Virus record (IMG/VR): IMGVR_UViG_3300024294_000597
DNA from: a virus
DNA: 64,000 nt
Reading direction: 5' to 3' (one strand)
Part shown: piece after piece, positions 15,178 through 63,838 of the stretch
Layout of the letters: each line of letters opens with the position of its first letter
Numbering within the stretch: the stretch's first letter is position 1
Notes under the pieces: generated by a model
What the model was told of the DNA's origin: nothing
The model's database searches: none
Seen by the model: the letters and a program-made list of their open reading frames with translations, nothing else
Made by a program: the position numbers and the translations under genes

Positions 15178-15206
15178 ACTATAACACGATTCGATAGTTT
15201 GTCAAG
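15178..15206 (-). promoter_or_regulatory. Sigma70-type promoter with GANTC in spacer
   Basis: CTTGAC-N17-TATAGT; CGATTCG at 15187-15193 (+). Confidence 0.8.
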
Positions 15207-15209
15207 TTT

Positions 15210-15992
15210 TTAGCTATTATTTTTTCTTTGTATGTCTGTTTCTTCACATAATTCACCATATTGTACTTCAATTATGTGTGCTGGTTCATCACCGATATTT
15301 GTTGTTTTATGCCAGCATTCCTTAGGTATTAAGAATGTGTCATGTGGACGCAGATAGATTGCTTCTTTTTTCTTACCAAATTCTAGTTCAATCATGATAT
15401 CTCCTTCTAAGACATACCAATATTCGTTTCTATATCTATGTTTCTGATTTGATAAACTCTTGCGTGGGTTGATAACTAGTTCTTTGACTTTTTGCCCAAC
15501 CTTAGGTTGCTTATCATCAAGTACTCGCCAGTAGCCCCATGTTCTATGTGTTCTCTGTGTTTTCCAATCATCAAGTATCCAACTACTAGAGTTACGTTTG
15601 TTTGTACCACCTACACCAAATTCAAATCTGACCCATGGCATTTCTGCGTATTGTTTGTATTCGGGTGTTGTAGCATTACCTCTATCTCCGCCATTTGCGA
15701 ATATAAACTTAGTACCAATTGGATACATAGATTGTATCTTGTATAATGCGTAACTGGCTGTATCGTCACTATCATCAAAGTCAATAACCTTGTCAACTAC
15801 TTCTAGTGCTTCGATGATTGCTTTGCGTTCAGCAAAGTTCATAAATGCTCTGCCTTTTTTACGGGTAAGCCATTCGTCTGAATTTATCCCTACGACTAAT
15901 TCATCACCGAGTTCTTTTGCTGATTTAAAATACTCTATATGTCCAGAGTGTAGTGGGTCGAACCCACCCGTTACTAAAACTACTTCTTTCAT
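15210..15992 (-). CDS. Cytidylyltransferase-like domain fused to mannose-6-P isomerase-type cupin
   Basis: TGGFDPLHSGH, FANGGDR, SSS; RTWG..SLSNQKH..RNEYW..WH..IEVQ; start moved to ATG 15992. Confidence 0.85.
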   Translation of the reverse strand: MKEVVLVTGGFDPLHSGHIEYFKSAKELGDELVVGINSDEWLTRKKGRAFMNFAERKAIIEALEVVDKVIDFDDSDDTASYALYKIQSMYPIGTKFIFANGGDRGNATTPEYKQYAEMPWVRFEFGVGGTNKRNSSSWILDDWKTQRTHRTWGYWRVLDDKQPKVGQKVKELVINPRKSLSNQKHRYRNEYWYVLEGDIMIELEFGKKKEAIYLRPHDTFLIPKECWHKTTNIGDEPAHIIEVQYGELCEETDIQRKNNS

Positions 15993-16038
15993 GTTAATAC
16001 TTATCTTCTTGGGATTTAGTAATTTGTATACGTTTGAA

Positions 16039-16422
16039 TTATTTACTTGAGTATATTTCTTCAAACTTGCTTTCTCTGTCTAAGAATTTATATTCTACTT
16101 TCGTAGGTTCCATTACTTCTAAGAAAGGTAGAACCTGATTAGGATCCATTTCAGAACAAGTATATACATCTAACTGACACAATGCAGGACTCACTTCGTC
16201 CCAGATATGCATAGCGATATGTGATGTTTCTATAATTGCAAAGGCTGTTAACCCTCTGTTGCCTTCCATCTTACAATACGTGGCAGTAGGACCATACATC
16301 GGTTTCATGCCGATTGCTTTAATCATCTTTCGCAAATACTTAATTGCCTTATTTTTATTTTGTAAAGGCTTATTAACCTCTGCACGAATTAATAGGTGCT
16401 TGTGTACTAGTAACTTATTCAT
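16039..16422 (-). CDS. speD: S-adenosylmethionine decarboxylase proenzyme
   Basis: H.LI, IIETSHIAMHIW (self-cleavage SH motif), LDVYTC. Confidence 0.85.
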   Translation of the reverse strand: MNKLLVHKHLLIRAEVNKPLQNKNKAIKYLRKMIKAIGMKPMYGPTATYCKMEGNRGLTAFAIIETSHIAMHIWDEVSPALCQLDVYTCSEMDPNQVLPFLEVMEPTKVEYKFLDRESKFEEIYSSK

Positions 16423-16430
16423 AATCGTAT

Positions 16431-16535
16431 TTAGTCTTTCATTGGTGGTTCTTCATTATTCCATAAGACAAGCATTAAAATAATGCCGGCAAATATACCG
16501 GCAGTAAGTAATAAGGATATAAGTATAGGACTCAT
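16431..16535 (-). CDS. 34-aa single-TM peptide (not in ORF track)
   Basis: MSPILISLLLTAGIFAGIILMLVLWNNEEPPMKD; ATGA overlap with upstream stop. Confidence 0.55.
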   Translation of the reverse strand: MSPILISLLLTAGIFAGIILMLVLWNNEEPPMKD

Positions 16536-17359
16536 ATAGCTTTAACGTAATTTAATCTTGTCTCTGCAATGTGGTCTTGATTCCAAACAGTACCGTGGCT
16601 TTTTACTTTAGCACTAATTGTAAAATCTTTATCAACTTCCCATATTTCTTTTGTACTAAAGAAACTAATACGGTTGCCGTCACTAGTGATAGCTGATACA
16701 TTTAGTCCTGGATAACTCTGACTACTGTTTGCTTTGAGAACAGTAATGTCTGCGAACACAAGTCCATCTTTGCGGGTTGATGTTAAGTGTACTGAATTTT
16801 CACTACGGTCAGTAACTTCCCGTTCCCATACTTTTTTAACTGCATAAGTCGGTAGATAAGCGGCAACACCCCAATATTGCTTTGGTAATTTATCTGTAGT
16901 TGCAAGAATAGTTGCAATGCCACTTTCAAATTCATTCATGTTCTCTGACATAATCTTAAACATGAAATCCATTTCAAGTTCTTTAATAATTTCTTTTGCC
17001 GCATTCATATGCTTTGGTTGTATTAAGTGTGGATAAAGATGCAACACGCCGACTAGAATTTCTTTGTTAGGTAATTTCATTTGTAGATAACGACTACCCT
17101 CTGGAGTCTCGGCAAAACTATAAACTCCTTGGTCAACTTTTATATACTCACCTTCATTCATTTCGTTTGCAACTAGGGATGCCGCAATAACAGTTTCACG
17201 GTTCCAACCATTTTCTTCACGTTCCTTAATATCTTTATAGTCAACGCCCGAGTTGTCTAGTTGAAAGTTGTACTTGTGATGATAGAGTACGTTACGTTCA
17301 AAATGAGTGTGCTTATCACCTACATGTTCCATACTATATACCTCTGCTGAATTAATCAT
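16532..17359 (-). CDS. Hypothetical phage protein, possible C-terminal OB-fold
   Basis: Long ORF with own promoter; C-terminal beta-rich AKVKSH...TRLNYVK. Confidence 0.7.
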   Translation of the reverse strand: MINSAEVYSMEHVGDKHTHFERNVLYHHKYNFQLDNSGVDYKDIKEREENGWNRETVIAASLVANEMNEGEYIKVDQGVYSFAETPEGSRYLQMKLPNKEILVGVLHLYPHLIQPKHMNAAKEIIKELEMDFMFKIMSENMNEFESGIATILATTDKLPKQYWGVAAYLPTYAVKKVWEREVTDRSENSVHLTSTRKDGLVFADITVLKANSSQSYPGLNVSAITSDGNRISFFSTKEIWEVDKDFTISAKVKSHGTVWNQDHIAETRLNYVKAI

Positions 17360-17365
17360 AATATT

Positions 17366-17394
17366 ATATTAACACCTTTTTCATAGTTGTCAAG
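17366..17394 (-). promoter_or_regulatory. Sigma70-type promoter without GANTC, probably leaderless
   Basis: CTTGAC-N17-TAATAT, 6 nt before ATG 17359. Confidence 0.7.
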
Positions 17395-17395
17395 T

Positions 17396-17794
17396 TTATG
17401 GGTGTAGCGGAAACAAACCCAAGATTGCATTAATAACAGGATCATCCTTATCACCAAATACATAACCACATGTATCAAGTGGTATGTGATGCACTACGTC
17501 TCCGTCTTGAATAGGATATGTTGGGTCGTGTACTATTCCACAATGTGATAGATGTTTCTCTGCCATCATAATAGAAGATTGTAATTGGGCTTCATTGACA
17601 CTTAGAACAAGAACTGTTCCGAAACCCTGCGTAGTCTCATTAGACCACATATTAAACAATTCGTAATCAATCATTCCTCCCTCTTTTATATTGTGAACAA
17701 ACTGATTACTGGCATGTGATGCCTGCGCCATTGCTTTACCAGGGTTAAGACTATCTAAGTCATTACGCATTAGTATATAAAGTACCGGTGTCAT
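17396..17794 (-). CDS. Peptidyl-tRNA hydrolase 2 (Pth2)-like protein
   Basis: MRNDL...GKAMAQASHA signature, VLVL, IVHD, T..VFG. Confidence 0.75.
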   Translation of the reverse strand: MTPVLYILMRNDLDSLNPGKAMAQASHASNQFVHNIKEGGMIDYELFNMWSNETTQGFGTVLVLSVNEAQLQSSIMMAEKHLSHCGIVHDPTYPIQDGDVVHHIPLDTCGYVFGDKDDPVINAILGLFPLHP

Positions 17795-17826
17795 TTAGAT
17801 TCCCTTTTAACTACGAACATAAATAT

Positions 17827-17856
17827 AGTATATAGTGATTCGAACTATTTGTCAAG
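17827..17856 (-). promoter_or_regulatory. Sigma70-type promoter with GANTC in spacer
   Basis: CTTGAC-N18-TATACT; TGATTCG at 17836-17842 (+). Confidence 0.75.
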
Positions 17857-17865
17857 GAATTTAAT

Positions 17866-19104
17866 ATGAGCAAAGACTGGTTACCAAAGCATAAGAAACT
17901 ACAGCGATGGCAATATATGCGGGTAGATGATTGGGATGCTGAATGGAAAGCTCCAATGAGTGATTTTGAATTAGGGTTTTGGACAGTGAATGGATTTCAT
18001 ACGTTAGAAGATTCTCATGAACCCATTACAGACTTAAGACCGTCAATACCTAGGCTAACGGGTATAATAGACTACGACACTCAAATAGGATGGCAAGTTG
18101 CTGAACCACCTGGAAAAAACCCGTACTGGTATTCTAATTGGAACGGTAGCGACCATCCAAAAAGATTTGATGATATGGCTTCTGTTATACCTGAAGGTTG
18201 GCGTTGGCATAACCAAAAAATAAAATACCGCAACAACAAGCAAGGCTTTCGATGTAATAAAGATTTTGATGAAATTGATTGGAAGAATAGTTATGTCATA
18301 ACTGGCTGTTCGCATATTTATGGTATAGGACAACAACTGAATGAAACTATCGGAGAAATGATTAGTGAAAAAATTAAAGCACCAGTTATCAATCTCGCAA
18401 TCGGTGGAACAGGCAACGGAGTTATATTACATAACTTAGTTCATTTAATTCGCAAGTATGGTAAACCAAAAGGCATATTCGTCTATTGGACATACCCAAC
18501 TAGGTTCACACGGGTTCTTGGTTATGTAAAAGAAACTAAGGATGCATGGGGAATTGATATATCTCGTACTTGGTTACGTAGAGATATATTACCCGGAACA
18601 GACACACCAACAAATATAATAGAACCAGGTGAAAAAGTTGGACCGCTGATGAGAGAATTAGTTATTCCAGATGTAGATATGGTAAGCAATTCTAGGAGTT
18701 TCTATCAAAGAACCATAGCACAAGAAACGTTGTTTGCTATAATGGGTGAAGAAAATGTATATCAACTACGTTGTGATAATCCCGGAAAAGTAACAGAAGA
18801 AGATGATCCTATCGATACAGATTTAACTACTATGTGTCCTAGCTGGACACATGATGTAATAAGAAATTGTATACAGATACCAAAACACCAAGCAGACACA
18901 ACACTGCCGTGGGAAGAATTTAATAACAGTGATGGCTCATTAAGTGATGCACAACTCTATGTATTAAATAAAATAAAAGCCAGAGATATAGGAGCGTATG
19001 AGCCTGAAGGTAACGGACCTATAGGCGGACATTGGGGTCCCATAATGAATAAAAAAGTTGCATTAAGGTTTGTTAAAAAATGGAGACACATAAATGAAGG
19101 GTAA
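17866..19104 (+). CDS. SGNH/GDSL-like protein
   Basis: NKQGFR, GCSHIYGIG, INLAIGG, C-terminal ARD...HWG. Confidence 0.65.
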   Translation: MSKDWLPKHKKLQRWQYMRVDDWDAEWKAPMSDFELGFWTVNGFHTLEDSHEPITDLRPSIPRLTGIIDYDTQIGWQVAEPPGKNPYWYSNWNGSDHPKRFDDMASVIPEGWRWHNQKIKYRNNKQGFRCNKDFDEIDWKNSYVITGCSHIYGIGQQLNETIGEMISEKIKAPVINLAIGGTGNGVILHNLVHLIRKYGKPKGIFVYWTYPTRFTRVLGYVKETKDAWGIDISRTWLRRDILPGTDTPTNIIEPGEKVGPLMRELVIPDVDMVSNSRSFYQRTIAQETLFAIMGEENVYQLRCDNPGKVTEEDDPIDTDLTTMCPSWTHDVIRNCIQIPKHQADTTLPWEEFNNSDGSLSDAQLYVLNKIKARDIGAYEPEGNGPIGGHWGPIMNKKVALRFVKKWRHINEG

Positions 19105-20086
19105 TATAAATCCTGGTATAGATTTTTCAGATGCAAATCGTTATGTTAACTTAGGTATTGATTGGTTTTGTTGTAGATATAGTGAGAATGATTACCTAGA
19201 TTCCACTGAGGAGTTAAACCATAAACGATTTTCTGAAAAGTTAGGAACAAGTTGGAAATATCATATATCAAAAAGGCCATTACAATACATACATAATGAA
19301 ATAGGGTTCAGAGAAAAACCATTAAATACATTTGATATTGCTAATTCATTTGCAATATTTGGGTGTTCGCATATATATGGTACAGGTAATTACTACAATG
19401 ATACAGTAAGTCAATTTCTTAAACAATATCTAGGTCATGACTGTTTAAACTTTGGTGTAGGTGGGGCATCAACTACTACTGTATATAATAATTTATTAAA
19501 GTTCTTAAGTGTGAATGACACATGTAAAGGTATCGCAGTTGTATGGCCAAATGTTAATAGACTTACTAGTATATGGAGATATGCCGGAGATGAAGTTCAT
19601 CAACGTTGGAGAAGACATGATGTGGTACCCGGAACTAATAAACTAAACTACTGGTACCTTGACAAAGAGTTTAAGAGAAAACCAGAAGACGTTCATCCAT
19701 CCATGCCCAGGTCTCATCATATAGATAATCCGCATAACATTTATTTGATTAATTCATATCGTCTTGCAATACAGATGATTTGCAAAGAACGTAATATACC
19801 ATTAGCTGAAATGTTTATAGATGATATCTTTGATAGTTATCCGTGGCCTAATTGCGATATCAACGTGCCTCGAAGAACAGAACAAAATTTAACACAATGG
19901 TCTATGGGAGGCTATTGGCATGAAGTGCCTGAAAGGGATAGATGGTGGTTTGTAAACAATATGTATGCTAGAGATATATCAAGGATGGATACGAATGAAA
20001 TACATAGGTTGTTAGCACATAGAGGGTGTGCAGTGAACCGAGGTATAGCAAAGTCGCTGAGTAATATATTTAATGAAGTGTCTTAG
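19094..20086 (+). CDS. SGNH/GDSL-like protein, paralog of 17866..19104
   Basis: NEIGFR, GCSHIYGTG, NFGVGG, RR.D..PGT, ARDI...HRG. Confidence 0.65.
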   Translation: MKGNINPGIDFSDANRYVNLGIDWFCCRYSENDYLDSTEELNHKRFSEKLGTSWKYHISKRPLQYIHNEIGFREKPLNTFDIANSFAIFGCSHIYGTGNYYNDTVSQFLKQYLGHDCLNFGVGGASTTTVYNNLLKFLSVNDTCKGIAVVWPNVNRLTSIWRYAGDEVHQRWRRHDVVPGTNKLNYWYLDKEFKRKPEDVHPSMPRSHHIDNPHNIYLINSYRLAIQMICKERNIPLAEMFIDDIFDSYPWPNCDINVPRRTEQNLTQWSMGGYWHEVPERDRWWFVNNMYARDISRMDTNEIHRLLAHRGCAVNRGIAKSLSNIFNEVS

Positions 20087-20288
20087 GGTCTCGTTCTATA
20101 TACTTGTCAATGTAATCGTATTCGTCAAGTCCTTCTTCAATAAAACCTAACTCAACACAACGATAGAACCCAGGTGAAGCCCACCCAGGAAACCCAAATA
20201 CTTCTATTAACTGTATCAATTCATCAGAGGTCATTGCACCACTTAGTTCATCAACATCTAATAACTTATTATTGTAAAGAATTTTCAT
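20070..20288 (-). CDS. Hypothetical protein
   Basis: ORF track 20070..20303; ATG 20288 overlaps upstream stop (ATGA). Confidence 0.6.
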   Translation of the reverse strand: MKILYNNKLLDVDELSGAMTSDELIQLIEVFGFPGWASPGFYRCVELGFIEEGLDEYDYIDKYIERDPKTLH

Positions 20289-20710
20289 TGTACTATTGTA
20301 CATCTACCACCTTGGATCATTTTCTTTCCAGTCATATCGATTGACTGTACTACTGAATATTCCAAAGTTTGTCTATTAACTGTGAATACCATGTATCCGT
20401 TTTGTATATCTACCCAGAAACTATATTCTGTTGGACTTGGTTGCACGTGTACTGGTATCCAATCTGTCCATTCGCCATTTGGTTTGCGTATCAATGGTCG
20501 TATAGATGCACGTTGTTGCACTGGTAACATGTAAACAGCTATTGCATAATCCATTGTTTCATCAAAGCCACACAACAGTTTAATTTCGGTTATGCTCTTT
20601 TTGTCTGGTAATTCTTCTGCACGTGCCATTGAGACAGTGCCACTTATAATCATAGCCCATACAGCCAGGACTAGGAGACCAGCAAATAAATTTCTAATTA
20701 TGTGTTTCAT
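20285..20710 (-). CDS. Hypothetical exported protein
   Basis: N-terminal signal peptide ending ARA. Confidence 0.65.
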   Translation of the reverse strand: MKHIIRNLFAGLLVLAVWAMIISGTVSMARAEELPDKKSITEIKLLCGFDETMDYAIAVYMLPVQQRASIRPLIRKPNGEWTDWIPVHVQPSPTEYSFWVDIQNGYMVFTVNRQTLEYSVVQSIDMTGKKMIQGGRCTIVQ

Positions 20711-20722
20711 TCTAGTGCTTAT

Positions 20723-20884
20723 TTATTTTAGGAATAAAATTAATAGTCCTAATGCGACAATCCAGGGCGCATATCGCCAACCGAATTTAACGGAGCCGAC
20801 TATAACTGCTAGTACAACACCAACAGTTATCCCGGTAATGATTAAGGGTTGAAGTGTATCCCAAAAAACTTGAAGTGAATCCAT
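20723..20884 (-). CDS. 53-aa two-TM membrane protein (not in ORF track)
   Basis: MDSLQVFWDTLQPLIITGITVGVVLAVIVGSVKFGWRYAPWIVALGLLILFLK; fills the gap exactly. Confidence 0.65.
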   Translation of the reverse strand: MDSLQVFWDTLQPLIITGITVGVVLAVIVGSVKFGWRYAPWIVALGLLILFLK

Positions 20885-21082
20885 TTAGTGAATCCAATCA
20901 TACACGGCTTCGTGCAAGAACGAACCGTTCTCATTGATTACTTCTAACTGTTCTTCGGTAGCTTCAACGCCATCGATTTCAGCCTCTGAGATATATGCAT
21001 CACAGAATTTAGGAGCATCAGCATAATCGATGCCCTCTACACTCATTACATCTACCTTACTAAAGTCTATTTTTATTTTCAT
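20885..21082 (-). CDS. Small acidic hypothetical phage protein
   Basis: AGGAGG RBS; DAPKFCDAYI..A. Confidence 0.75.
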   Translation of the reverse strand: MKIKIDFSKVDVMSVEGIDYADAPKFCDAYISEAEIDGVEATEEQLEVINENGSFLHEAVYDWIH

Positions 21083-21092
21083 ATGTGCCTCC

Positions 21093-21389
21093 TTAAGCTA
21101 CTTTACGTGTTATCATTGATTTGTGCAATCGAGTACTACCTCGAAAGATTGGGTTATTACCAGCATTAGATACGTCTACTGTTGAACGATTGTTCTTGGT
21201 AATGACACCTTGCTTTAGTACCCCACCGTATTCCCATTCGATAGTATCACCAATCTTAAGTCCTGCGGCTTTTTGTTTACCTAGAAACGTTTGGTGTCTA
21301 CGAAAATGGTCTGCTAGTACTGACAACTCACCACTAGATTGTATACGGCTCAGAGCCACGATTGCATTTTCTAATTCTTTACTCATCAT
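21093..21389 (-). CDS. Small hypothetical protein, SH3-like C-terminus
   Basis: LKIGDTIEW...G.I.K.N; GAGAGG RBS and own promoter. Confidence 0.7.
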   Translation of the reverse strand: MMSKELENAIVALSRIQSSGELSVLADHFRRHQTFLGKQKAAGLKIGDTIEWEYGGVLKQGVITKNNRSTVDVSNAGNNPIFRGSTRLHKSMITRKVA

Positions 21390-21422
21390 AGTATTAACCT
21401 CTCTTTTATTAACTATACTTAC

Positions 21423-21451
21423 AGTATAACACTGATTCGATATTTGTCAAG
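21423..21451 (-). promoter_or_regulatory. Sigma70-type promoter with GANTC in spacer
   Basis: CTTGAC-N17-TATACT; TGATTCG at 21433-21439 (+). Confidence 0.8.
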
Positions 21452-21454
21452 TTT

Positions 21455-21754
21455 TTACAACATATCCAATATAGGAGACTTCAACCAAGCACGTAAACCC
21501 TTTTCATACTGTATTGAATCAGCAAACTTCTGTTTGTCAAATGGTTTGACAATCGTTTGTTCTAGGGCTTTCATCTTCTTGGCTTGTACTAGTGTTACAC
21601 GTACACGTTTGTTATCATCAGTAAGCACTGACGTAAGCGGTTTAGGGTTCCCTTGCGAGTCTTCTATCTTAGAAAACTGTAGGAACATCTTCGCTTGTTT
21701 ATACGACGGACCGTATTCATCTTCTTCTGTTCTGTTATAACTTTCTTTGCTCAT
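21455..21754 (-). CDS. Hypothetical protein
   Basis: GAGAGG RBS; cassette orientation. Confidence 0.7.
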   Translation of the reverse strand: MSKESYNRTEEDEYGPSYKQAKMFLQFSKIEDSQGNPKPLTSVLTDDNKRVRVTLVQAKKMKALEQTIVKPFDKQKFADSIQYEKGLRAWLKSPILDML

Positions 21755-21864
21755 AATACTACCTCTCTGTTAGTTTGTTATTTGCGTGTCCTCCGAAAAA
21801 GGCGTCGCGGAAACTCTTTCTCTTTCGGAAAATTTTTCTCATATAGATAAACTACTCATATAAT

Positions 21865-22011
21865 CTATTGTTGTCTAGTCCTCCGAAGTTCACGTTTAAC
21901 CCGTTTCATTTCACGATACATGTGCCAACGGTATTGCAAGTATTCAGACCCTATAATAACGGCTGAGACAATGATTGACGCTATCCCAATGATAATCCAA
22001 TCAGAATACAT
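21865..22011 (-). CDS. 48-aa single-TM peptide with basic tail (not in ORF track)
   Basis: MYSDWIIIGIASIIVSAVIIGSEYLQYRWHMYREMKRVKRELRRTRQQ; TAATG coupling. Confidence 0.6.
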   Translation of the reverse strand: MYSDWIIIGIASIIVSAVIIGSEYLQYRWHMYREMKRVKRELRRTRQQ

Positions 22012-22391
22012 TATGATACCGCCATCAATTCTATCTTACCACTTGCTGAGTTAGGTACTAGTTCCATGTGTACATTCTGCTCAACAGCCGCATCAAGGAT
22101 AATCTGTTCCATAATCGGTTCTACTATCTCTGTAATACGATCCCACTGACCTTCATAGTAATACCCGTGACGATATTCAGGTAATGGTAATTGATCCCGG
22201 CGTAAGCCTAACACACGTAACTGCCTACCCCTATTACCCAATCCGTTATTGAATATGTCATGTACTACATTCCCTGCTTTACGTAGTCGCTCTAAACACT
22301 TATTCTTATTCACTGAATGTACAGAACCCTCTAGTGGAATACTTTCATCTAGTTTATATACTACTGATTCTAAATCTTTACATACCCACAT
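22011..22391 (-). CDS. Hypothetical phage protein
   Basis: LERLRKA.N.VHDIFNNGLGN; RBS and promoter. Confidence 0.7.
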   Translation of the reverse strand: MWVCKDLESVVYKLDESIPLEGSVHSVNKNKCLERLRKAGNVVHDIFNNGLGNRGRQLRVLGLRRDQLPLPEYRHGYYYEGQWDRITEIVEPIMEQIILDAAVEQNVHMELVPNSASGKIELMAVS

Positions 22392-22419
22392 GTTTAAACC
22401 TTTCTTTGACTATAGATAT

Positions 22420-22448
22420 AATATATCACTGATTCTTTATTTGTCAAG
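22420..22448 (-). promoter_or_regulatory. Sigma70-type promoter with GANTC in spacer
   Basis: CTTGAC-N17-TATATT; TGATTCT at 22430-22436 (+). Confidence 0.75.
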
Positions 22449-22451
22449 TTT

Positions 22452-22781
22452 TTATTGATAGTATTTTGGATTATTATATATCTCATCAGCAATCATATTA
22501 TTCTCATGTAGAATAGCTAACTGAGTATGTGGATGAAACGCAACACACATAAATCCATCTTCTTCGTATAGCTTAATGTTCTCTTGATACTCATGTTCAG
22601 TTAAACAATCAGCATACTCTAAGTGAGTTAATCCTGGTTCTAATACTAGATAGTCATGCTTGAAGTTGACAAATTCGGTATCGGGTTCTAAATCATGCTT
22701 AGATAAAAAGTTCTCATACATAGTAGTAGCAAATGAGTTAGAGGCAGAACTTATATAGTTAGACATATTAGTAACAATCAT
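22452..22781 (-). CDS. Acidic hypothetical protein
   Basis: AAGGAG RBS and upstream promoter. Confidence 0.65.
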   Translation of the reverse strand: MIVTNMSNYISSASNSFATTMYENFLSKHDLEPDTEFVNFKHDYLVLEPGLTHLEYADCLTEHEYQENIKLYEEDGFMCVAFHPHTQLAILHENNMIADEIYNNPKYYQ

Positions 22782-22810
22782 AGGGGAGACTCCTTAATTA
22801 AGATATACGT

Positions 22811-22840
22811 AGTATACACGATTATACACGGTTTGTCAAG
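22811..22840 (-). promoter_or_regulatory. Sigma70-type promoter, near-miss GANTC (CGATTA)
   Basis: CTTGAC-N18-TATACT. Confidence 0.65.
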
Positions 22841-23153
22841 TTTTGGCACCCTATACATGACACGGTGGTAAAAATATTCTGCGTATTTTTTTGGAATGTG
22901 GATCCAATATAAAAAAGTGGTAAACACTGTATAGGGAAACCCTATATGGAAATAGAGGCAAAAAATGGTCTGCGACCAAACGCCACCTCCAGGCCAAACA
23001 CTTTCCTACTATATATACAAAAGTTCCGATTCGCAAGGCCTTTTATTTTATTTTTTATTTTTACCTGAATCTTTTTGTTTTTCTTTCCATGCACGGTAAC
23101 CATCAAGCCACGCTGTTTCCATAGTAGTAGGAGTCTTACTCTTAGACTTCTTA

Positions 23154-23498
23154 CTATGCTTGTGCTTTGCCGTTATGTTCTTTTTTCCATTCCCATTCAT
23201 CTGTACTCCATTCGTAATCATCATAGTCTACCCCATCCTCATAGTCTATGGGTATGCACTCTGCTATCTTATGAGTAGTATACAAGTCACCAGTATAGTC
23301 TGAGTTCCAGTCCTGTGCTGATACTTCTACTTCCTCTCCCTTATAGAACCCATCCTTATATACGACACGCTCTATGCCTCCACACTCCAGTACGGCTTCT
23401 TCTGCCTGCTCTGGAGAGTCCGCTACTACATCATACTCTACCCATGTAGTGTACGCTGTCTTAACCCTGAACTTCTGCTTACCTATATCTTTATGCAT
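23154..23498 (-). CDS. Acidic hypothetical protein
   Basis: V.ADSPEQAEE motif; overlaps upstream gene. Confidence 0.7.
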   Translation of the reverse strand: MHKDIGKQKFRVKTAYTTWVEYDVVADSPEQAEEAVLECGGIERVVYKDGFYKGEEVEVSAQDWNSDYTGDLYTTHKIAECIPIDYEDGVDYDDYEWSTDEWEWKKEHNGKAQA

Positions 23499-24313: not shown

Positions 24314-24322
24314 TATGTATAT

Positions 24323-24351
24323 ACTATAACATGATTCGCTATATTGTCAAG
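24323..24351 (-). promoter_or_regulatory. Sigma70-type promoter with GANTC in spacer
   Basis: CTTGAC-N17-TATAGT; TGATTCG at 24332-24338 (+). Confidence 0.8.
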
Positions 24352-24419
24352 TTTTTAATACCGGAGGCCAAACATATATATGATATAATATATATGATTA
24401 AAAAGGTTTAATGTTAAAC

Positions 24420-25036: not shown

Positions 25037-25047
25037 TCTATACTTAT

Positions 25048-25077
25048 AGTATACACTTGATTCGCGGTTTTGTCAAG
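25048..25077 (-). promoter_or_regulatory. Sigma70-type promoter with GANTC in spacer
   Basis: CTTGAC-N18-TATACT; TGATTCG at 25058-25064 (+). Confidence 0.8.
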
Positions 25078-25078
25078 T

Positions 25079-25258
25079 TTAATCGAAAAAGTTACCCAAC
25101 ACCCAAACGAACTTAGTATCACTTACTTGACTCCATACTCCATCAGACCAATTATTCCACAATATAGCTTTATTGGCATCTTCCATAACATCAAGGCCGT
25201 TCTCTGCTTGTGCAGTAAATACGTCACCTAAATGATTTTCAAATGTAAATGTTTTCAT
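25079..25258 (-). CDS. 59-aa hypothetical protein (not in ORF track)
   Basis: MKTFTFENHLGDVFTAQAENGLDVMEDANKAILWNNWSDGVWSQVSDTKFVWVLGNFFD; own promoter. Confidence 0.7.
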   Translation of the reverse strand: MKTFTFENHLGDVFTAQAENGLDVMEDANKAILWNNWSDGVWSQVSDTKFVWVLGNFFD

Positions 25259-25286
25259 ATTCTCACTCTCTTGTTAGTATGTATAT

Positions 25287-25315
25287 ACTATAACACGATT
25301 CGCTGTATTGTCAAG
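25287..25315 (-). promoter_or_regulatory. Sigma70-type promoter with GANTC in spacer
   Basis: CTTGAC-N17-TATAGT; CGATTCG at 25296-25302 (+). Confidence 0.8.
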
Positions 25316-25350
25316 TTTATGGCAAAACTATTTCCCACGTAGGGCACGGT

Positions 25351-27594: not shown

Positions 27595-27608
27595 CAGGGA
27601 GTAAATTC

Positions 27609-54374: not shown

Positions 54375-55721
54375 TTATGCGGCTTCTTTGTGGTAGTAAG
54401 CGTGTTCACCGAACGGTGGGACGATTGAGTCACTGCCATGAATTACAAATAGTGTATCACAGTAATTTGGATTACCCCAACTACCAAATGGGTATCCATC
54501 AGTAAACATTACAAACTTATCAGGATTGATATCGTTTTGTTCCATGAAGTTAAAGTTACATTCAAAATCAGTACCACCTCCACCAACGATTTCATAATCT
54601 TTGATTTCTTCTTGGTTCATCGGAGTAAACTCCTTGAATGAAAATTCATTAACCTCAGTATCGAAAGTCCAAACTCTAAGTCTAAAGTCCTGAAACTGTT
54701 GCATGATGCCTCCAACTTCACCCATGAAGTCAGCTAACATTTTATTATCAATAGAACCTGAAACATCAAGTCCGATACCTAAGTCAACCATAGTATCATT
54801 GTCTTGACCTGGAAGATAAACACCCATAGACCTAGATTTCCTTGATTGACGCATCCATGTAAAATCTGATTTAAGTAAACTTAAAATAGATGTATTAAGT
54901 AACTGTCGCCAATCCATTTTAGGTTCTGTCATAGACTTAACAAGTCTTTTGATATCACCAGGCATATTACCAGCACCAGCAGTTTGAGCCGCTTGAATAA
55001 CAGCCTGTTTCATTTGGTCTTTAAGTTGTTTTGCTTCCTGTTTAGAAATTTTGATAGGCGCTTTACGTCCTGTAGGATCGTTACCACCTGTGCCACCTGT
55101 TTCATCATTGCCATTACCCATGATATGTTGGTCAAGTGTTTTTTTGTCTTCACCTTGACCTGTTTGTTTCAGATGTTGATAAATTTCCTCAGTGTATTTA
55201 CCATGATACTTAGGATCGAATAGTGCAGATTTTGGCATAACACCAATTCTACTTTCAACACAACCTTGATTAACTTTATAGTCAGCGGCTACATTCCAAA
55301 GTTGAGCATCACGATCCTCCTCTTCAAAATCGAATAGACGACCGCCCTCACCACAATGGTCATATACACAGTGAAGAACCTCATGACCTACTACAAAGTC
55401 AATCTCTTCCGGTGTTAAAGTTCTGAAAAAATCACAGTTATAATAAAAATGTTTGCCATCAACTGCGGCTGTTGGGCACCATTCTGCCTCAACTAGTTTT
55501 AATCGTGTAGCAAGTGTACCAAAGAACGGATGTTTGATAAGCATACGTACTCGACCGCCGACAATCATTTCTTTTACTTCTCGGTCAGTGTATTCGAATA
55601 CTACGGGTTCTTCTGAATTTTCATCTACTTCAATGCCTGCATCTTTCAATACATCATCTACTATTTCATCAACTGTTTTCTGATTTGATACTTGCATGTG
55701 AACGTTACCTTTATCTTTCAT
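54375..55721 (-). CDS. HExxH metallopeptidase-like plus vWA domain protein (MoxR partner; alternative start 55697)
   Basis: PFFG, TAAVDG, HEVLH, N.AAD..N; DVSGS MIDAS, GGGGTDF, FTDGY. Confidence 0.88.
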   Translation of the reverse strand: MKDKGNVHMQVSNQKTVDEIVDDVLKDAGIEVDENSEEPVVFEYTDREVKEMIVGGRVRMLIKHPFFGTLATRLKLVEAEWCPTAAVDGKHFYYNCDFFRTLTPEEIDFVVGHEVLHCVYDHCGEGGRLFDFEEEDRDAQLWNVAADYKVNQGCVESRIGVMPKSALFDPKYHGKYTEEIYQHLKQTGQGEDKKTLDQHIMGNGNDETGGTGGNDPTGRKAPIKISKQEAKQLKDQMKQAVIQAAQTAGAGNMPGDIKRLVKSMTEPKMDWRQLLNTSILSLLKSDFTWMRQSRKSRSMGVYLPGQDNDTMVDLGIGLDVSGSIDNKMLADFMGEVGGIMQQFQDFRLRVWTFDTEVNEFSFKEFTPMNQEEIKDYEIVGGGGTDFECNFNFMEQNDINPDKFVMFTDGYPFGSWGNPNYCDTLFVIHGSDSIVPPFGEHAYYHKEAA

Positions 55722-55730
55722 TATGTATAC

Positions 55731-55759
55731 ATATTAACACGATTCGCTGTATTGTCAAG
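55731..55759 (-). promoter_or_regulatory. Sigma70-type promoter with GANTC in spacer
   Basis: CTTGAC-N17-TAATAT; CGATTCG at 55740-55746 (+); -35 and spacer identical to the 25287 promoter. Confidence 0.8.
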
Positions 55760-55940
55760 TTTTCAATACTTCATTAATCGCATTACGTTCTTTAATTAGT
55801 TGTTCCCTGGTTAAAGCAAACTTAGTGTAATAATCCATATCACTTGTAGTAATCTTATGATATTTACCATCCCTATTGCCTTTTACGTATTTAACTGGCA
55901 ATGACACATTTGATAGACTAGACAATGTAAGCACTCCCAA
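55755..55940 (-). CDS. Small hypothetical protein (start uncertain)
   Basis: Fills gap in minus-strand run. Confidence 0.4.
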   Translation of the reverse strand: MGVLTLSSLSNVSLPVKYVKGNRDGKYHKITTSDMDYYTKFALTREQLIKERNAINEVLKT

Positions 55941-56202
55941 TATGAGCAGAAGGTCTATTATGCTCTACCGGCTTAGTAGCATATTCATCTGAACCAGGAA
56001 CATATACACTTTCCACCATATATTCTACATCTTTTCCTAACATAGGGACTCTAACACCTCTGTCCAATATCTTTTGTATGATATCTTTAGCATGGTCACT
56101 ATCATAAGCAAACACTGATAATTGGTCAACTTCTCCAGCTGGAGCATCAACAGGTCTAATGTTTACTATATAGTCATTTTTTAGCGATTTTAGTGTTATC
56201 AT
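55918..56202 (-). CDS. Hypothetical protein
   Basis: GAGAG RBS and own promoter. Confidence 0.65.
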   Translation of the reverse strand: MITLKSLKNDYIVNIRPVDAPAGEVDQLSVFAYDSDHAKDIIQKILDRGVRVPMLGKDVEYMVESVYVPGSDEYATKPVEHNRPSAHIGSAYIV

Positions 56203-56232: not shown

Positions 56233-56261
56233 ATTATACTACAGATTTACAACCTGTCAAC
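56233..56261 (-). promoter_or_regulatory. Sigma70-type promoter
   Basis: GTTGAC-N17-TATAAT. Confidence 0.65.
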
Positions 56262-56283
56262 CTTTTGAGAGATAAAAAACTAA

Positions 56284-61211: not shown

Positions 61212-62576
61212 TTACTCCACAAATTGTTCTTTGACTACGTGTCTCTGAACTTTGCCCATAGGATTTCTAGGTAGTGGATCTTTGGTAATAACAATTTCTT
61301 TAGGTAATTCATACTGAAATAATTTATCTTTAACAAAGTCCATCAACTCAAGACTATTTATCTCACTGTCCGCACTGACTACTGCAACAATTTCTTTTTC
61401 CCCTAGTCCTCTATCACGATATGTAACACAAACTTCGTTAACCTCTTCATGAGGTAATAACATATTTTCAATTTTAATAGGCGATACATTGAAACTGTTT
61501 ACTTTTATTAAATCTGTTTTACGTGATTTATAAAATAAAAGATTATGCTGAGTTTCTAATACATCACCAGTACACCAATAGCCATCATCATCTATAGGTG
61601 TTTCTTGATTCAGATATCCTTCTGTAACACAACTACCTTTAATCCAAGCAACACCATATCTATCTAATTTGAAATCATAGTTATCAGTAATATGAATTTG
61701 TAAAGGATGTGGATCATCTGGAGTTGCCAAGTGTGTAAACATTGGTACATGTGTTTCAGTACAGCCATACAAGTTTCTTAATGCAGGTGCACCTTTATCA
61801 AATAGTTCTTGTAGCATTTCTTCCGGACAAACTGTACTACCAAAACCTAACTCACGCCAATGAGACAAGTCTGCGTCTTTCCAACCACGTGTCTTAGACA
61901 GGGCCAACATCATTGCAGGAACCATAATACCTATCGTAGGTTTCATTTCGTTACAAATCTTAATAAACTTTCTGGGATTAAACATTTCACAAATTACTGT
62001 ACACCCTTTCATTAAACCAGGAAGTGTATAAAGATACAGACCACCAATAGTCCAAGGAGGAAGTTGTGAGAGTATTACATCATCAGATGTTAAAGTTTGA
62101 ATTAGAATGTTTTGTATTGAGCCTTGGACACATGCCATTCTAGTATGTGGGACTGCCTTAGGCTCTCCTGTAGTACCGCTAGTAAATATAACAGTATATA
62201 AATCATCTGCACCTTTGGCAAATACTAATCCTTTGTTATGAGGTTTTAGATTAGATGCATCATCCTCATTTAGAATAATATGATTTGGTTTACTGGCATT
62301 CTCAATACGAGATACCATACCTTCAGTTAGATTTGGCATAGTGGGCATGAATGTGACTCCTAACATATCACAAGCTAATACCATTCTTACATAATGATAT
62401 TCTTTTTCACTTGAAAATAGTAGACGCTCACCAGGCCTGATGGCAGTAGACAACGTAGCACCTAGTTTTTCAACACTGGTGATTAGTTCGTTGTATGTAT
62501 AACTCTTATCGTGGCAAATCAGGGCAGTCTTGCTACCGTGATTCTTTGCCTGTGCTTTTATTGTTTCCCAAATCAT
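61212..62576 (-). CDS. Adenylate-forming acyl-CoA/acyl-AMP ligase
   Basis: FTSGTTGEPK, YGCTE, TGD, R..D.IK, LPRNPMGK. Confidence 0.92.
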   Translation of the reverse strand: MIWETIKAQAKNHGSKTALICHDKSYTYNELITSVEKLGATLSTAIRPGERLLFSSEKEYHYVRMVLACDMLGVTFMPTMPNLTEGMVSRIENASKPNHIILNEDDASNLKPHNKGLVFAKGADDLYTVIFTSGTTGEPKAVPHTRMACVQGSIQNILIQTLTSDDVILSQLPPWTIGGLYLYTLPGLMKGCTVICEMFNPRKFIKICNEMKPTIGIMVPAMMLALSKTRGWKDADLSHWRELGFGSTVCPEEMLQELFDKGAPALRNLYGCTETHVPMFTHLATPDDPHPLQIHITDNYDFKLDRYGVAWIKGSCVTEGYLNQETPIDDDGYWCTGDVLETQHNLLFYKSRKTDLIKVNSFNVSPIKIENMLLPHEEVNEVCVTYRDRGLGEKEIVAVVSADSEINSLELMDFVKDKLFQYELPKEIVITKDPLPRNPMGKVQRHVVKEQFVE

Positions 62577-62581
62577 ATCTA

Positions 62582-62610
62582 ATTATAACAAAAAAAGGGA
62601 GAGAAGTCAA
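62582..62610 (-). promoter_or_regulatory. Consensus sigma70 promoter for ligase operon, probably leaderless
   Basis: TTGACT-N17-TATAAT, 5 nt before ATG 62576. Confidence 0.75.
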
Positions 62611-62624
62611 CACCTCTCTCCCTT
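62590..62624 (-). terminator. Intrinsic terminator of MoxR gene, overlapping the promoter
   Basis: aagggagaga/tctctccctt stem with T-run on minus strand. Confidence 0.8.
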
Positions 62625-62647
62625 AAAACGCAATAAAGTGTCTGCTC

Positions 62648-63802
62648 TTATGCGTTATGAGCCTCGATAATTAGCTTACCGTATTTCTTAAAGAACTCCT
62701 CGATACAAGGAACCTTCCTAGGCTCAAGTGGAAGTTTGTAAACTTTTAGTGCAGTACGACCACCTAGAACAATCATTTCAGTTTCAAAGTTATCCATCAT
62801 GAACCTGAAAAAGTTATCAGCCATTTTGTACAACTCATCCATTTTGCCTTTGTTTTTCTCTGCATGTTCTTTCAACTCATAACATAGTGAAGCAGTTAGT
62901 GAGAACATAGCTGAGATTTCCTTAGCTTCCCTAGACACCGTTTTTACCTTACCATTTAAGATATCAGTTGGATTAGGAAGTTTACCAGAAATTGCTCGGT
63001 GAGCCATAAACTTAGTAGCAACACCATCACCAACAGTACCAGCAATTAAGTCATGCAGTTTACTATCATCGATATTTTCATCTTTCATTGGCATCAACTG
63101 TGATGCAAAAGTCCATGAACGAGGAGTTGCGAAAGCCCGTGATGCAGTTCGTGGGTCAAAGTTAAACAAGTCCATCTTATTAGATGTTAAGTAACCAACA
63201 ACATCAGAATGGATTTTGTTTTCAAGAGCCCAAGTCTGCCAATCTTCAAAGTCAACACCCATTTCTAAGTGAACGAAACGGTTAGCAAGTGGGCTTGGCA
63301 TACGATAAGCAACACCTCTATCACTCTCACGGTTACCAGCGGCAACAATAAGAACATTATCAGGTAGAGTGTAATTACCTAGACGCCTGTTAAGAATAAG
63401 TTGATAAGCCGCCGCTTGTACTGATTGCGGTGCTTGGTTCATTTCATCTAAAAACAATACAATGTTTTCAAACTGGTCAGCAAGTTCCTGACTAGGCAAA
63501 TCAGACGGTGTCGCCCAATCCATAGTATTTGTTTTCTCATTATAGTATGGGATACCTCGTAAATCAGTAGGTTCCATAAGAGCAAGTCGTAAGTCAATCA
63601 TATAACCTGAACGCTCTTGTGTGATTGAATCAACAATCTCAGATTTACCTACTCCCGGAGGACCCCAAATAAAGACGGGTCGTTGACGATTAAAAGCATA
63701 ATTAATTTCAGCTTTAATATCACTCGGACGTACAATTCGTACATCCATATCATTCATTGAAACTTGTGCAGACATATTTTCATTTCCTTTGTTTTGTATC
63801 AT
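62648..63802 (-). CDS. MoxR-type AAA+ ATPase (alternative start 63775)
   Basis: GPPGVGKS Walker A, LFLDE Walker B, AAGN, LANRF, TPRSW. Confidence 0.92.
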   Translation of the reverse strand: MIQNKGNENMSAQVSMNDMDVRIVRPSDIKAEINYAFNRQRPVFIWGPPGVGKSEIVDSITQERSGYMIDLRLALMEPTDLRGIPYYNEKTNTMDWATPSDLPSQELADQFENIVLFLDEMNQAPQSVQAAAYQLILNRRLGNYTLPDNVLIVAAGNRESDRGVAYRMPSPLANRFVHLEMGVDFEDWQTWALENKIHSDVVGYLTSNKMDLFNFDPRTASRAFATPRSWTFASQLMPMKDENIDDSKLHDLIAGTVGDGVATKFMAHRAISGKLPNPTDILNGKVKTVSREAKEISAMFSLTASLCYELKEHAEKNKGKMDELYKMADNFFRFMMDNFETEMIVLGGRTALKVYKLPLEPRKVPCIEEFFKKYGKLIIEAHNA

Positions 63803-63809
63803 TAACTAT

Positions 63810-63838
63810 ATAATAGCACGATTCGTGATTCTGTCAAG
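63810..63838 (-). promoter_or_regulatory. Sigma70-type promoter with two GANTC sites
   Basis: CTTGAC-N17-TATTAT; CGATTCG at 63819-63825 and GATTC at 63827-63831 (+). Confidence 0.8.

What the first reader, a model, noticed from the sequence alone, without database searches (positions are those of the whole stretch)
15178..63838. Promoter family with a position-fixed GANTC (YGATTCG) site: possible hijack of CcrM/GcrA epigenetic transcription
Seen: 12 minus-strand promoters of form (C/G)TTGAC-N17/18-TAnnnT. Nine carry GAATC 4-5 nt upstream of the -10 box (15178, 17827, 21423, 22420, 24323, 25048, 25287, 55731, 63810); eight read exactly YGATTCG on the other strand while the rest of the spacer varies. 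Known: GANTC is the CcrM m6A target of Alphaproteobacteria; the Caulobacter sigma70 cofactor GcrA prefers methylated YGAKTCG; CTTGAC-N17 matches the alphaproteobacterial RpoD consensus. Inference: alphaproteobacterial host, with early genes activated by host or phage GcrA in a methylation-dependent way. Replication outrunning methylation could then act as an early-to-late switch.
Basis: partly seen in the sequence, partly recalled or inferred. Interest (0 to 1): 0.82.

Follow-up and report, generated by a model that had tools for sequence, protein, structure and literature searches.

The report
GcrA-type GANTC box in phage promoters
An uncultured marine giant phage keeps the methylation word GANTC, which it otherwise avoids, at one fixed spot in most of its host-type promoters, exactly where the alphaproteobacterial RNA-polymerase cofactor GcrA reads it; the phage therefore probably borrows that host factor, but host, methylation and factor are all untested.

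Summary
Twelve minus-strand sigma70-type promoters (AAAACTTGACA-N16/17-TAnnnT) are the top hits of an independent scan. Nine carry GAATC 4-5 nt before the -10 box, centred at -19/-20. Eight read YGATTCG on the other strand.

The window is part of a ~340-kb uncultured marine jumbo myophage of the PA5oct/Rak2 type. That type uses host RNA polymerase.

New evidence:
- In 41 unique box promoters from the window and its relatives, the flanks are always M...R (YGAKTCK on the complement). The 5-6 bases between the -35 box and the GANTC box vary freely.
- GANTC is otherwise the most depleted interrupted palindrome in the window (O/E 0.57).
- Relatives with depleted GANTC have boxes (28 of 146 promoters). 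Relatives without depletion have none (0 of 187).
- In 24 cultured phages, GANTC depletion goes with alphaproteobacterial hosts (p = 0.0004). The window lies below all 12 non-alpha phages.
- The complete relative encodes no GcrA and no adenine methylase.

Against: the host is unknown, no cultured phage tested has this promoter class, and there are no methylation or RNA data. The "replication outruns methylation" switch is speculation.

This scan reported the same theme in other windows of this genome and in at least 137 other genomes. I found no published description. Verdict: a real, probably GcrA-type element; confidence about 0.5.

The parts
63810..63842 (-). Box promoter upstream of the MoxR-type AAA ATPase gene (62648-63802). 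TTGACA at 63837-63832, GAATC at 63820-63824 (G at -21), a second GAATC abutting the -35 box (G at -28), -10 TATTAT at 63815-63810.
   Evidence: the orthologous promoter in L001-L004 and L036 keeps GAATCG while the upstream site varies (GAATC, GATTC or lost)
55731..55763 (-). Box promoter upstream of the DUF2201 metallopeptidase/VWA gene (54375-55721). CGAATCG at 55740-55746, -10 TAATAT at 55736-55731, then the palindrome TATGTATACATA.
   Evidence: the box is conserved at the orthologous site in the five closest relatives while the 7 nt upstream of it differ
25287..25319 (-). Box promoter (CGAATCG, spacer 16, TGt-TATAGT) upstream of a small ORF starting at 25258.
25048..25081 (-). Box promoter (CGAATCA, spacer 17, 5-nt gap, TATACT) upstream of the 122-aa ORF 24668-25036.
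24323..24355 (-). Box promoter (CGAATCA, spacer 16, TGt-TATAGT) upstream of a small ORF.
22420..22452 (-). Box promoter (AGAATCA, which is TGATTCT on the plus strand; 5-nt gap; TATATT) upstream of the 126-aa ORF 22011-22391.
21423..21455 (-). Box promoter (CGAATCA, 5-nt gap, TGt-TATACT) upstream of the 98-aa ORF 21093-21389.
17827..17860 (-). Box promoter (CGAATCA, spacer 17, TATACT, CC instead of AA before TTGACA) upstream of the PTH2-type peptidyl-tRNA hydrolase gene 17396-17794.
15178..15210 (-). Box promoter (CGAATCG, spacer 16, TGt-TATAGT) upstream of the secreted FG-GAP / peptidoglycan-binding protein gene 13389-15146.
56233..56265 (-). Same promoter family without GANTC (TAAATCTG at the box position; -10 TATAAT), upstream of the 94-aa ORF 55918-56202.
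22811..22844 (-). Same promoter family with a degenerate box (TAATCGTG, G replaced by T), upstream of the 109-aa ORF 22452-22781.
17366..17398 (-). Same promoter family without a box (GAAAAAGGTG), upstream of the 275-aa ORF 16532-17359.
62582..62610 (-). Second promoter class: TTGACT, pyrimidine-rich 17-nt spacer, TGt-TATAAT, no GANTC. Upstream of the AMP-binding enzyme gene 61212-62576.
   Evidence: conserved in L001-L004 and L036
53740..53768 (-). Second promoter class, second copy, upstream of ORF 53403-53696.

Best explanation
These are host-RNA-polymerase (sigma70) promoters of an uncultured marine jumbo myophage. Shown: the sequence anatomy and its conservation.

Most of them carry a cofactor site, M-GA(A/T)TC-R (YGAKTCK on the complement), in the spacer and centred at -19/-20.

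Inferred: the host is a low-GC marine alphaproteobacterium. Its GcrA rides on sigma70 region 2, and its DNA-binding domain docks on this box. That stabilises polymerase binding and open-complex formation, as at Caulobacter PcsM. The box would then raise the firing of this promoter subset above the phage's box-less promoters.

Inferred: any m6A mark on the box comes from the host's CcrM-type methylase, because the phage encodes none.

Whether methylation is needed, and whether it sets timing, is unknown.
For: 1. Sequence. In 41 unique box promoters from the window and related loci, the 5' flank is only C or A (28/13) and the 3' flank only A or G. The centre is A (39) or T (2). 40 of 41 fit YGAKTCK. 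The bases between -35 and the box carry 0.2-0.5 bits each. The complete relative G001 has 20 such promoters against 0 in the mirrored control: 16 GAATC and 4 GATTC, including TGATTCG. The central base is therefore free, as expected for GANTC.

2. Position. G lies at -21/-22. In 81 unique extended -10 promoters, GANTC occurs only at -21/-22 (15 times) or -28/-27 (10 times). It is the commonest interrupted palindrome there: 25 against at most 7 for any other. Published GcrA boxes centre at -20 +/- 1, and PcsM has GAATC at -22..-18 (PMC4647560, PMC9976885).

3. GANTC is otherwise avoided. Its O/E is 0.57, the lowest of 16 interrupted palindromes.

4. Across 79 related loci, the GANTC-depleted groups (O/E 0.51, 0.66, 0.66) hold 28 boxes in 146 promoters. 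The non-depleted groups (1.15, 1.29, 0.98) hold 0 in 187. Within the depleted group, Spearman rho is -0.63.

5. Cultured phages: GANTC O/E has a median of 0.70 for 12 alphaproteobacterial phages and 0.98 for 12 others (one-sided Mann-Whitney p = 0.0004). The window lies below all 12 non-alpha phages.

6. GcrA is found in 199 of 301 sampled Alphaproteobacteria. Five small genomes with 31-34% GC have GcrA plus a 354-387-aa N6_N4 methylase.

7. Orthologous promoters keep the box while their neighbouring bases change.

8. Precedents. A prophage-like operon of Brevundimonas is GcrA-dependent (PMC7987155). The nearest cultured relative, PA5oct, depends on host polymerase and has TTGAC/TATAATA promoters (PMC7318152).
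Against: - The host is not identified. The capsid protein is equally close to phages of Pseudomonas, Vibrio, Salicola and Sinorhizobium. The genome-collection scan found only mis-binned phage contigs. An auxiliary gene gave no taxonomic signal.
- No cultured phage of an alphaproteobacterium in the panel has this promoter class. Phosso shows 4 against 0 and phiM12 2 against 0 with the strict pattern. The T4-type SAR11 phage HTVC008M and the Caulobacter phages show 0. The looser pattern shows no excess anywhere.
- The 3' R flank is also position -16 of the extended -10 element, which box-less relatives share. Only the 5' flank is therefore independent support for GcrA specificity.
- The second preferred site (centre about -26) does not match the published -30 +/- 2 and lies on another helix face.
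- The box is gained and lost among orthologous promoters of 70%-identity relatives, so it is not essential.
- Box presence and GANTC depletion mostly separate one large clade from three distant ones, so the number of independent events is small.
Confidence: 0.5

Rival explanations
1. The box is the site of another sequence-specific protein, not GcrA. One candidate is a phage-encoded activator or early-shut-off repressor. Another is a different host factor that reads CGA-N-TCG.
For: The box is an island of conservation in a variable spacer. It overlaps the region a repressor would need to occlude. CGAATCG is a 7-bp interrupted palindrome. Box promoters also share a conserved +1 region and, in some, a 12-bp palindrome, TATGTATACATA, which suggests additional regulators. 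Each phage clade has its own spacer signature just upstream of the extended -10: TTGR in the 46-48% GC clade and TTTTG in other low-GC promoters.
Against: It does not explain why GANTC is avoided across the rest of the genome, nor why that avoidance tracks box presence. It does not explain why the free central base and the 5' flank coincide with the GcrA/CcrM word. Seven base pairs is short for a dimeric phage repressor. No candidate protein is known.
Confidence: 0.2
2. No extra factor is involved. The box is a lineage-specific spacer element that host RNA polymerase contacts directly (a beta'-zipper / sigma region 3 type contact at -17 to -21). It simply makes strong promoters.
For: The box sits directly against the extended -10 TGn. 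Related clades have other conserved words at the same place. In one low-GC alphaproteobacterial genome (G112), near-identical TTGACA-N5/6-TGCGAATCTGTGT promoters precede tuf and rpsP, which are strong housekeeping genes.
Against: The strongest-looking promoters in the window (TTGACT...TGTTATAAT) lack the box. Only 1 of 13 extended -10 promoters in 410 kb of the low-GC alphaproteobacterium G086 has it. A polymerase contact would not leave the central base free, and would not select against GANTC elsewhere in the genome.
Confidence: 0.13
3. The promoter is methylation-sensitive without GcrA. m6A at GANTC (from CcrM or another GANTC methylase) changes polymerase affinity directly. Dam does this at some E. 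coli and IS10 promoters. The fully methylated injected DNA and the newly replicated DNA would then fire differently.
For: The same GANTC evidence applies: a free central base, genome-wide avoidance, and the association with alphaproteobacterial hosts. There is no phage methylase.
Against: The constrained 5' flank (C/A only, 41 of 41) is a GcrA preference, not a known CcrM requirement. The fixed -20 position on the face away from polymerase is the GcrA geometry.
Confidence: 0.1
4. The box is a relic of promoter duplication or of recombinational homogenisation, as in the promoter-stem-loop cassettes of T4-type phages. It has no function of its own.
For: Several promoters share long identical stretches, including the +1 region ATATACATAATG. 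Two box-less family members look like decayed copies (TAATCGTG, AAATCTG).
Against: The 5-6 bases between the -35 box and the GANTC box are nearly random while the box is invariant. Orthologous promoters in relatives keep the box while their flanks change. GATTC replaces GAATC at the same position. The word is retained against genome-wide depletion.
Confidence: 0.04

Closest known systems
GcrA-activated, CcrM-methylated sigma70 promoters of Caulobacter crescentus with the box in the -35/-10 spacer (PcsM type; Haakonsen 2015, PMC4647560; Wu 2023, PMC9976885)
   Same: The core word GANTC, the extended word YGAKTCK/YGAKTCG, and one box per promoter in most cases. The centre is at -20 +/- 1 (PcsM: GAATC at -22..-18; here -21..-17 or -22..-18). 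The setting is a sigma70-type -35/-10.
   Different: Here the promoters belong to a lytic jumbo phage with 35% GC and near-consensus TTGACA, extended -10 and TAnnnT. The second preferred site is centred near -26, not -30 +/- 2. No downstream (+5..+30) boxes were seen. Host, GcrA binding and methylation are untested.
GcrA homologues encoded by phiCbK-like Caulobacter phages (Gill 2012, PMC3556154), and the GcrA-dependent prophage-like operon of Brevundimonas subvibrioides (Adhikari 2021, PMC7987155)
   Same: Phage or prophage genes tied to the GcrA module of an alphaproteobacterial host.
   Different: Those phages carry the factor, or the operon is chromosomal. This phage carries only the cis site: GcrA (PF07750) was not found in the complete relative. 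No promoter-box class was described in those papers.
Host-polymerase promoters of the related jumbo phage PA5oct (Lood 2020, PMC7318152), and T4 early promoters
   Same: Dependence on host sigma70 holoenzyme. Conserved TTGAC and TATAAT(A) motifs with extra conserved positions beyond the hexamers.
   Different: PA5oct and all eleven other non-alphaproteobacterial phages tested show no GANTC at the fixed spacer position beyond the mirrored control, and no GANTC depletion.
MotA-box middle promoters of phage T4
   Same: A short fixed-position word inside a sigma70 promoter defines a phage promoter class and is read by an accessory factor.
   Different: The MotA box replaces the -35 element and needs the phage proteins MotA and AsiA. 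Here the -35 box is intact, the word lies at -20, and it matches a host factor's site.

Membership tests
GcrA-dependent (CcrM-methylated) sigma70 promoters | A GANTC core with the extended context YGAKTCK/YGAKTCG | tested here: met
   9 of 9 boxes in the window fit YGAKTCK and 8 of 9 fit YGATTCG. 40 of 41 unique box promoters in the window plus relatives fit. The 3' R is shared with the extended -10 motif, so only the 5' flank is independent.
GcrA-dependent (CcrM-methylated) sigma70 promoters | Box centred at -20 +/- 1 or -30 +/- 2 in the spacer, or at +5..+30 | tested here: met
   The box spans -21..-17 or -22..-18, assuming the -10 box lies at -12..-7. The secondary site, centred near -26, is off the published -30 +/- 2. 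The transcription start is inferred, not mapped.
GcrA-dependent (CcrM-methylated) sigma70 promoters | The host encodes GcrA and CcrM (Alphaproteobacteria) | tested here: inconclusive
   The host is unknown. Indirect support: the window's GANTC O/E of 0.57 lies below all 12 non-alpha phages and within the range of alpha phages. Low-GC alphaproteobacterial genomes have both genes. The capsid-protein and genome-collection searches gave no host.
GcrA-dependent (CcrM-methylated) sigma70 promoters | The adenines of the box are N6-methylated | not testable with these tools
   No long-read kinetic or signal data were available. No adenine methylase of PF01555, PF02086 or PF05869 is present in the complete relative, so any mark must come from the host.
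GcrA-dependent (CcrM-methylated) sigma70 promoters | GcrA binds the box and raises transcription | not testable with these tools
   This needs in-vitro transcription, ChIP or reporters.
Sigma70-type promoters used by host RNA polymerase | -35 TTGACA, a 16-18 nt spacer, -10 TAnnnT, intergenic position upstream of a gene with a ribosome-binding site | tested here: met
   Matches of 10-11 out of 12, top-ranked in the scan. All lie 30-45 nt upstream of start codons that have GA-rich ribosome-binding sites. Transcripts could not be examined.
Phage-encoded GcrA or CcrM (self-supplied module) | A PF07750 protein or a GANTC-type N6_N4 methylase in the phage genome | tested here: not met
   No PF07750 match in 5 related contigs, including one complete and one 92% complete. 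The only PF01555 hits fall below the cut-off, in a 475-aa open frame that by position probably corresponds to the window's radical-SAM/SPASM gene 46209-47630 (correspondence inferred, not aligned).

The most novel reading that the evidence does not exclude
A widespread group of marine jumbo phages reads the epigenetic state of its own DNA. Promoters with a GcrA box would fire from the fully CcrM-methylated injected genome and fall silent on newly replicated, under-methylated copies. Host cell-cycle machinery would thus supply both the activator and the early-to-late timer, with no phage-encoded regulator.
Probability: 0.12. Interest if true: 0.88.

Novelty: new variant of a known kind. Interest (0 to 1): 0.62.

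Why it matters
GcrA/CcrM is the textbook example of bacterial epigenetic transcription control, but it is known only for cellular cell-cycle genes. A lytic phage that keeps only the cis site, against its own genome-wide avoidance of that word, would show that viruses exploit this cofactor.

It would also give a sequence-only marker: a fixed-position GANTC box together with GANTC depletion. That marker could assign uncultured marine phages to alphaproteobacterial hosts.

The idea is directly testable with Caulobacter or Agrobacterium polymerase plus GcrA on synthetic templates. No phage isolate is needed.

Tried and rejected
- Megablast of a 4.6-kb gene against cultured phages: no match.
- No whole genome is held for the window.
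- Host by capsid protein: equidistant to phages of Gamma- and Alphaproteobacteria.
- Host by scanning 185,579 species genomes with the capsid protein: only jumbo-phage contigs binned into MAGs labelled with many different phyla.
- Host by auxiliary genes: the ketoacyl synthase in the ESM Atlas and the DegT aminotransferase in the 5.8-billion-protein set gave only phage or metagenome relatives, or mixed phyla.
- Strict box-promoter pattern in 301 alphaproteobacterial genomes: 177 hits against about 166 in the mirrored control (control summed by hand). The test has no power.
- rpsP upstream regions in 30 Alphaproteobacteria: mostly operon-internal and uninformative.
- Short patterns (GATC, GANTC) cannot be counted with the genome search, and taxon names are not accepted as a centre.
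- Looser pattern CTTGAC-N7-9-GANTC in 24 cultured phages: no excess over control in any of them.
- GATC depletion as a host marker: rejected, because it also occurs in T4, Pseudoalteromonas H105/1 and a Cellulophaga phage.


Full report
**What the window is.**
The 64-kb window has 35.4% GC. It encodes sugar-modifying enzymes, at least six radical-SAM proteins (several with SPASM domains), a halogenase, a carbamoyltransferase, a ketoacyl synthase, a desaturase, and a MoxR ATPase with a DUF2201 partner. The DUF2201 protein has 79 relatives in IMG/VR. The closest are 91% identical and include a complete 342.6-kb contig with terminal repeats (G001, locus L001). The major capsid protein of G001 is 65-69% identical to those of PA5oct, Sinorhizobium phage Phosso, a Vibrio jumbo phage, Salicola SCTP-2 and the GAP32/Rak2 group. 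PA5oct depends on host RNA polymerase and has conserved TTGAC / TATAATA promoters (PMC7318152). The window is therefore part of an uncultured marine jumbo myophage that should use host sigma70 holoenzyme.

- Twelve minus-strand sites read AAAACTTGACA, a 16- or 17-nt spacer, then TAnnnT.
- In 13000-28000 they are the best-scoring sites of the independent consensus scan.
- Each lies in an intergenic gap upstream of a start codon with a GA-rich ribosome-binding site.
- Nine carry GAATC with a 4- or 5-nt gap to the -10 box.
- Eight read YGATTCG on the plus strand and the ninth reads TGATTCT.
- The (G/A)TG that follows the box is an extended -10 TGn element, found in every related clade.
They have no GANTC.

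**The box is under its own constraint.**
- I collected 41 unique box promoters from the window and the related loci and anchored them on the box.
- The core is invariant.
- The 5' neighbour is only C (28) or A (13), and the 3' neighbour only A or G.
- The centre is A (39) or T (2).
- The five or six bases between the -35 box and the GANTC box carry only 0.2-0.5 bits each.
- At the orthologous promoter of the DUF2201 gene, the five closest relatives keep GAATCGTG, while the seven bases upstream read ATACAGC, ATATCAA, ATATCAC or GATTCAA.
- G001 has 20 box promoters, all on one strand, against none in the mirrored control. Sixteen have GAATC and four have GATTC, including TGATTCG.
- In 81 unique extended -10 promoters of these clades, GANTC occurs at only two places: G at -21/-22 (15) and at -28/-27 (10). 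It is the commonest interrupted palindrome in the spacer, 25 against at most 7 for any other.
- Simple duplication relics would not give this pattern.

**Agreement with the known GcrA site.**
Haakonsen et al. define YGAKTCK and find sites narrowly centred around -20, or from +2 to +30 (PMC4647560). Wu et al. give -20 +/- 1 and -30 +/- 2, and solved a complex with GAATC at -22..-18 of PcsM (PMC9976885). With the -10 box at -12..-7, the boxes here span -21..-17 or -22..-18, and 40 of 41 fit YGAKTCK. There are two cautions. First, the 3' purine is also position -16 of the extended -10 element, which box-less relatives share, so only the 5' flank is independent support. Second, the secondary site, centred near -26, does not fit -30 +/- 2.

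**GANTC is otherwise avoided, and that tracks the box.**
- The window has 110 GANTC against 191-209 expected. This is O/E 0.57-0.58, the lowest of the 16 interrupted palindromes. GATC is at 0.21.
- Across the 79 related loci, the closest relatives (O/E 0.51), the 68-77%-identity low-GC group (0.66) and a 40%-GC group (0.66) together hold 28 boxes in 146 extended -10 promoters.
- Three more distant groups without depletion (1.15, 1.29, 0.98) hold none in 187. One of these groups has the same GC as the window.
- Within the depleted group, loci with a box have a median O/E of 0.59 against 0.72 without; Spearman rho is -0.63.
- These loci are not phylogenetically independent, so the number of separate events is small.
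- Still, a word that is purged everywhere yet kept at one promoter position points to a cellular system that reads GANTC. A private phage factor or a bare polymerase contact would not produce this.

**Host.**
- Direct approaches failed.
- Indirectly, I measured GANTC O/E in 24 cultured phages. Twelve infect Alphaproteobacteria: Sinorhizobium, Agrobacterium, Caulobacter, SAR11, SAR116, roseobacters and Rhodobacter. Their median is 0.70 (range 0.21-0.97).
- Twelve infect other hosts. Their median is 0.98 (range 0.74-1.18). One-sided Mann-Whitney p = 0.0004.
- The window, at 0.57, lies below every non-alpha phage.
- GATC depletion is not class-specific.
- A class-level genome sample centred on a MAG labelled Rickettsiales has GcrA in 199 of 301 genomes.
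- Five small genomes in that sample (1.1-1.7 Mb, 31-34% GC) have GcrA and one 354-387-aa N6_N4 methylase. Their own GANTC O/E is 0.5-0.76.
- One of them, G086 (33.6% GC), also has GATC at 0.38 and one phage-like promoter, TTGACATAAAATAAGAATCGTGTTATATT.
- Another, G112, has TTGACA-N5/6-TGCGAATCTGTGT before tuf and rpsP.
- These are leads, not host assignments. No claim here rests on the two unpublished genomes in the sample (G048, G241).

**What speaks against the reading.**
- No cultured phage has this promoter class. The strict pattern gives Phosso 4 against 0 and phiM12 2 against 0. The T4-type SAR11 phage HTVC008M, Cr30, phiCbK, the roseophages and all non-alpha phages give 0-3 hits (Aeh1 3, the others 0-1). 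The looser pattern shows no excess anywhere.
- The pattern has no power in megabase genomes.
- Among 70%-identity relatives, orthologous promoters gain and lose the box (cgaatcg / cgaattg; cgattcg / atattcg). It is therefore modulatory, not essential.
- The phage supplies neither GcrA nor an adenine methylase. Methylation of virion DNA would depend on host CcrM acting during the previous infection, which is unknown.
- 'Early' timing and the replication-coupled switch are conjecture.

**Comparison with what is known.**
- phiCbK-type phages encode GcrA homologues (PMC3556154).
- A prophage-like operon of Brevundimonas is GcrA-dependent (PMC7987155).
- Four literature searches found no description of a phage promoter class defined by a GcrA-type box.
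- This scan has reported the same theme in three other windows of this genome and in at least 137 other genomes. Those notes left the host untested.

**Verdict.**
The element is real and under selection. Its sequence, position, free central base, genome-wide counter-selection and host-class signature are best explained by a GcrA/CcrM-type host cofactor site (about 0.5). The rivals are another DNA-binding factor (0.2), a direct polymerase contact (0.13), methylation sensitivity without GcrA (0.1) and a duplication relic (0.04).

Noticed in passing
L124-L126 (Pelagibacter phage HTVC008M, NC_020484, 60 kb sampled): GANTC O/E is 0.21, and 18 of the 20 surviving sites read GANTCC. Sites with a 3' C are not depleted (O/E 0.78), while those with 3' A, G or T are at 0.03, 0.00 and 0.09. 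GANTCC/GGANTC cannot fit YGAKTCK on either strand, so this SAR11 phage seems to purge exactly the GcrA-readable contexts. Alternatively it may be avoiding a flank-sensitive enzyme.
   Followed up: partly
L010, L017-L023, L029, L031, L034, L038, L040, L041, L079; also window 1-64000: GATC is completely absent (O/E 0.00) from 15 related phage loci of 11-21 kb, and from 40 kb of the SAR116 phage HMO-2011. The window has O/E 0.21. The 46-48% GC relatives are enriched instead (1.5).
   Followed up: partly
window 62582-62610 and 53740-53768, minus strand: A second promoter class: TTGACT, pyrimidine-rich 17-nt spacer, TGTTATAAT. It has no GANTC and is conserved in the five closest relatives.
   Followed up: partly
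window 55716-55736 and the +1 regions of promoters 15205, 24350, 25314; L001, L002, L036: Box promoters share a conserved initial transcribed region, ATATACATAATG. In several it forms the perfect palindrome TATGTATACATA (up to ATTATGTATACATAAT in L001), overlapping the -10 box and +1. This could be an operator for a separate regulator.
   Followed up: no
L159 (G112:C57) about 3470-3498 and L160 (G112:C80) 3595-3623, minus strand: A 1.1-Mb, 31% GC alphaproteobacterial genome with GcrA has near-identical promoters, TTGACA-N5/6-TGCGAATCTGTGT, upstream of tuf and rpsP. A GANTC box at about -20 therefore also occurs on strong housekeeping promoters.
   Followed up: partly
L158, L197-L216 (G086, 410 kb sampled): An alphaproteobacterial MAG (33.6% GC, GcrA and two N6_N4 methylases) has genome-wide GATC O/E 0.38 and GANTC 0.73. 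It also has one promoter identical in style to the phage's (TTGACATAAAATAAGAATCGTGTTATATT) on a cellular contig. This is a candidate host-like lineage.
   Followed up: partly
L053-L078 (46-48% GC relatives): These relatives have 6-14 extended -10 promoters per ~20 kb with their own signature: GG-TTGACA ... TTGR-TG-n-TATAAT-a-t-a-c/g-a-c-a-t-a. None has GANTC.
   Followed up: no
L089-L106: Jumbo-phage capsid genes, and contigs of up to 335 kb, sit in public MAGs labelled Neomarinimicrobiota, Rickettsiales, Legionellales, Polynucleobacter, Fischerella, Bifidobacterium and others. These are likely binning errors.
   Followed up: no
window 30678-35246 and 4333-6975, plus strand: Proteins of 1522 aa and 880 aa have no PHROG or Pfam match. 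They sit inside clusters of radical-SAM and sugar-modifying enzymes.
   Followed up: no
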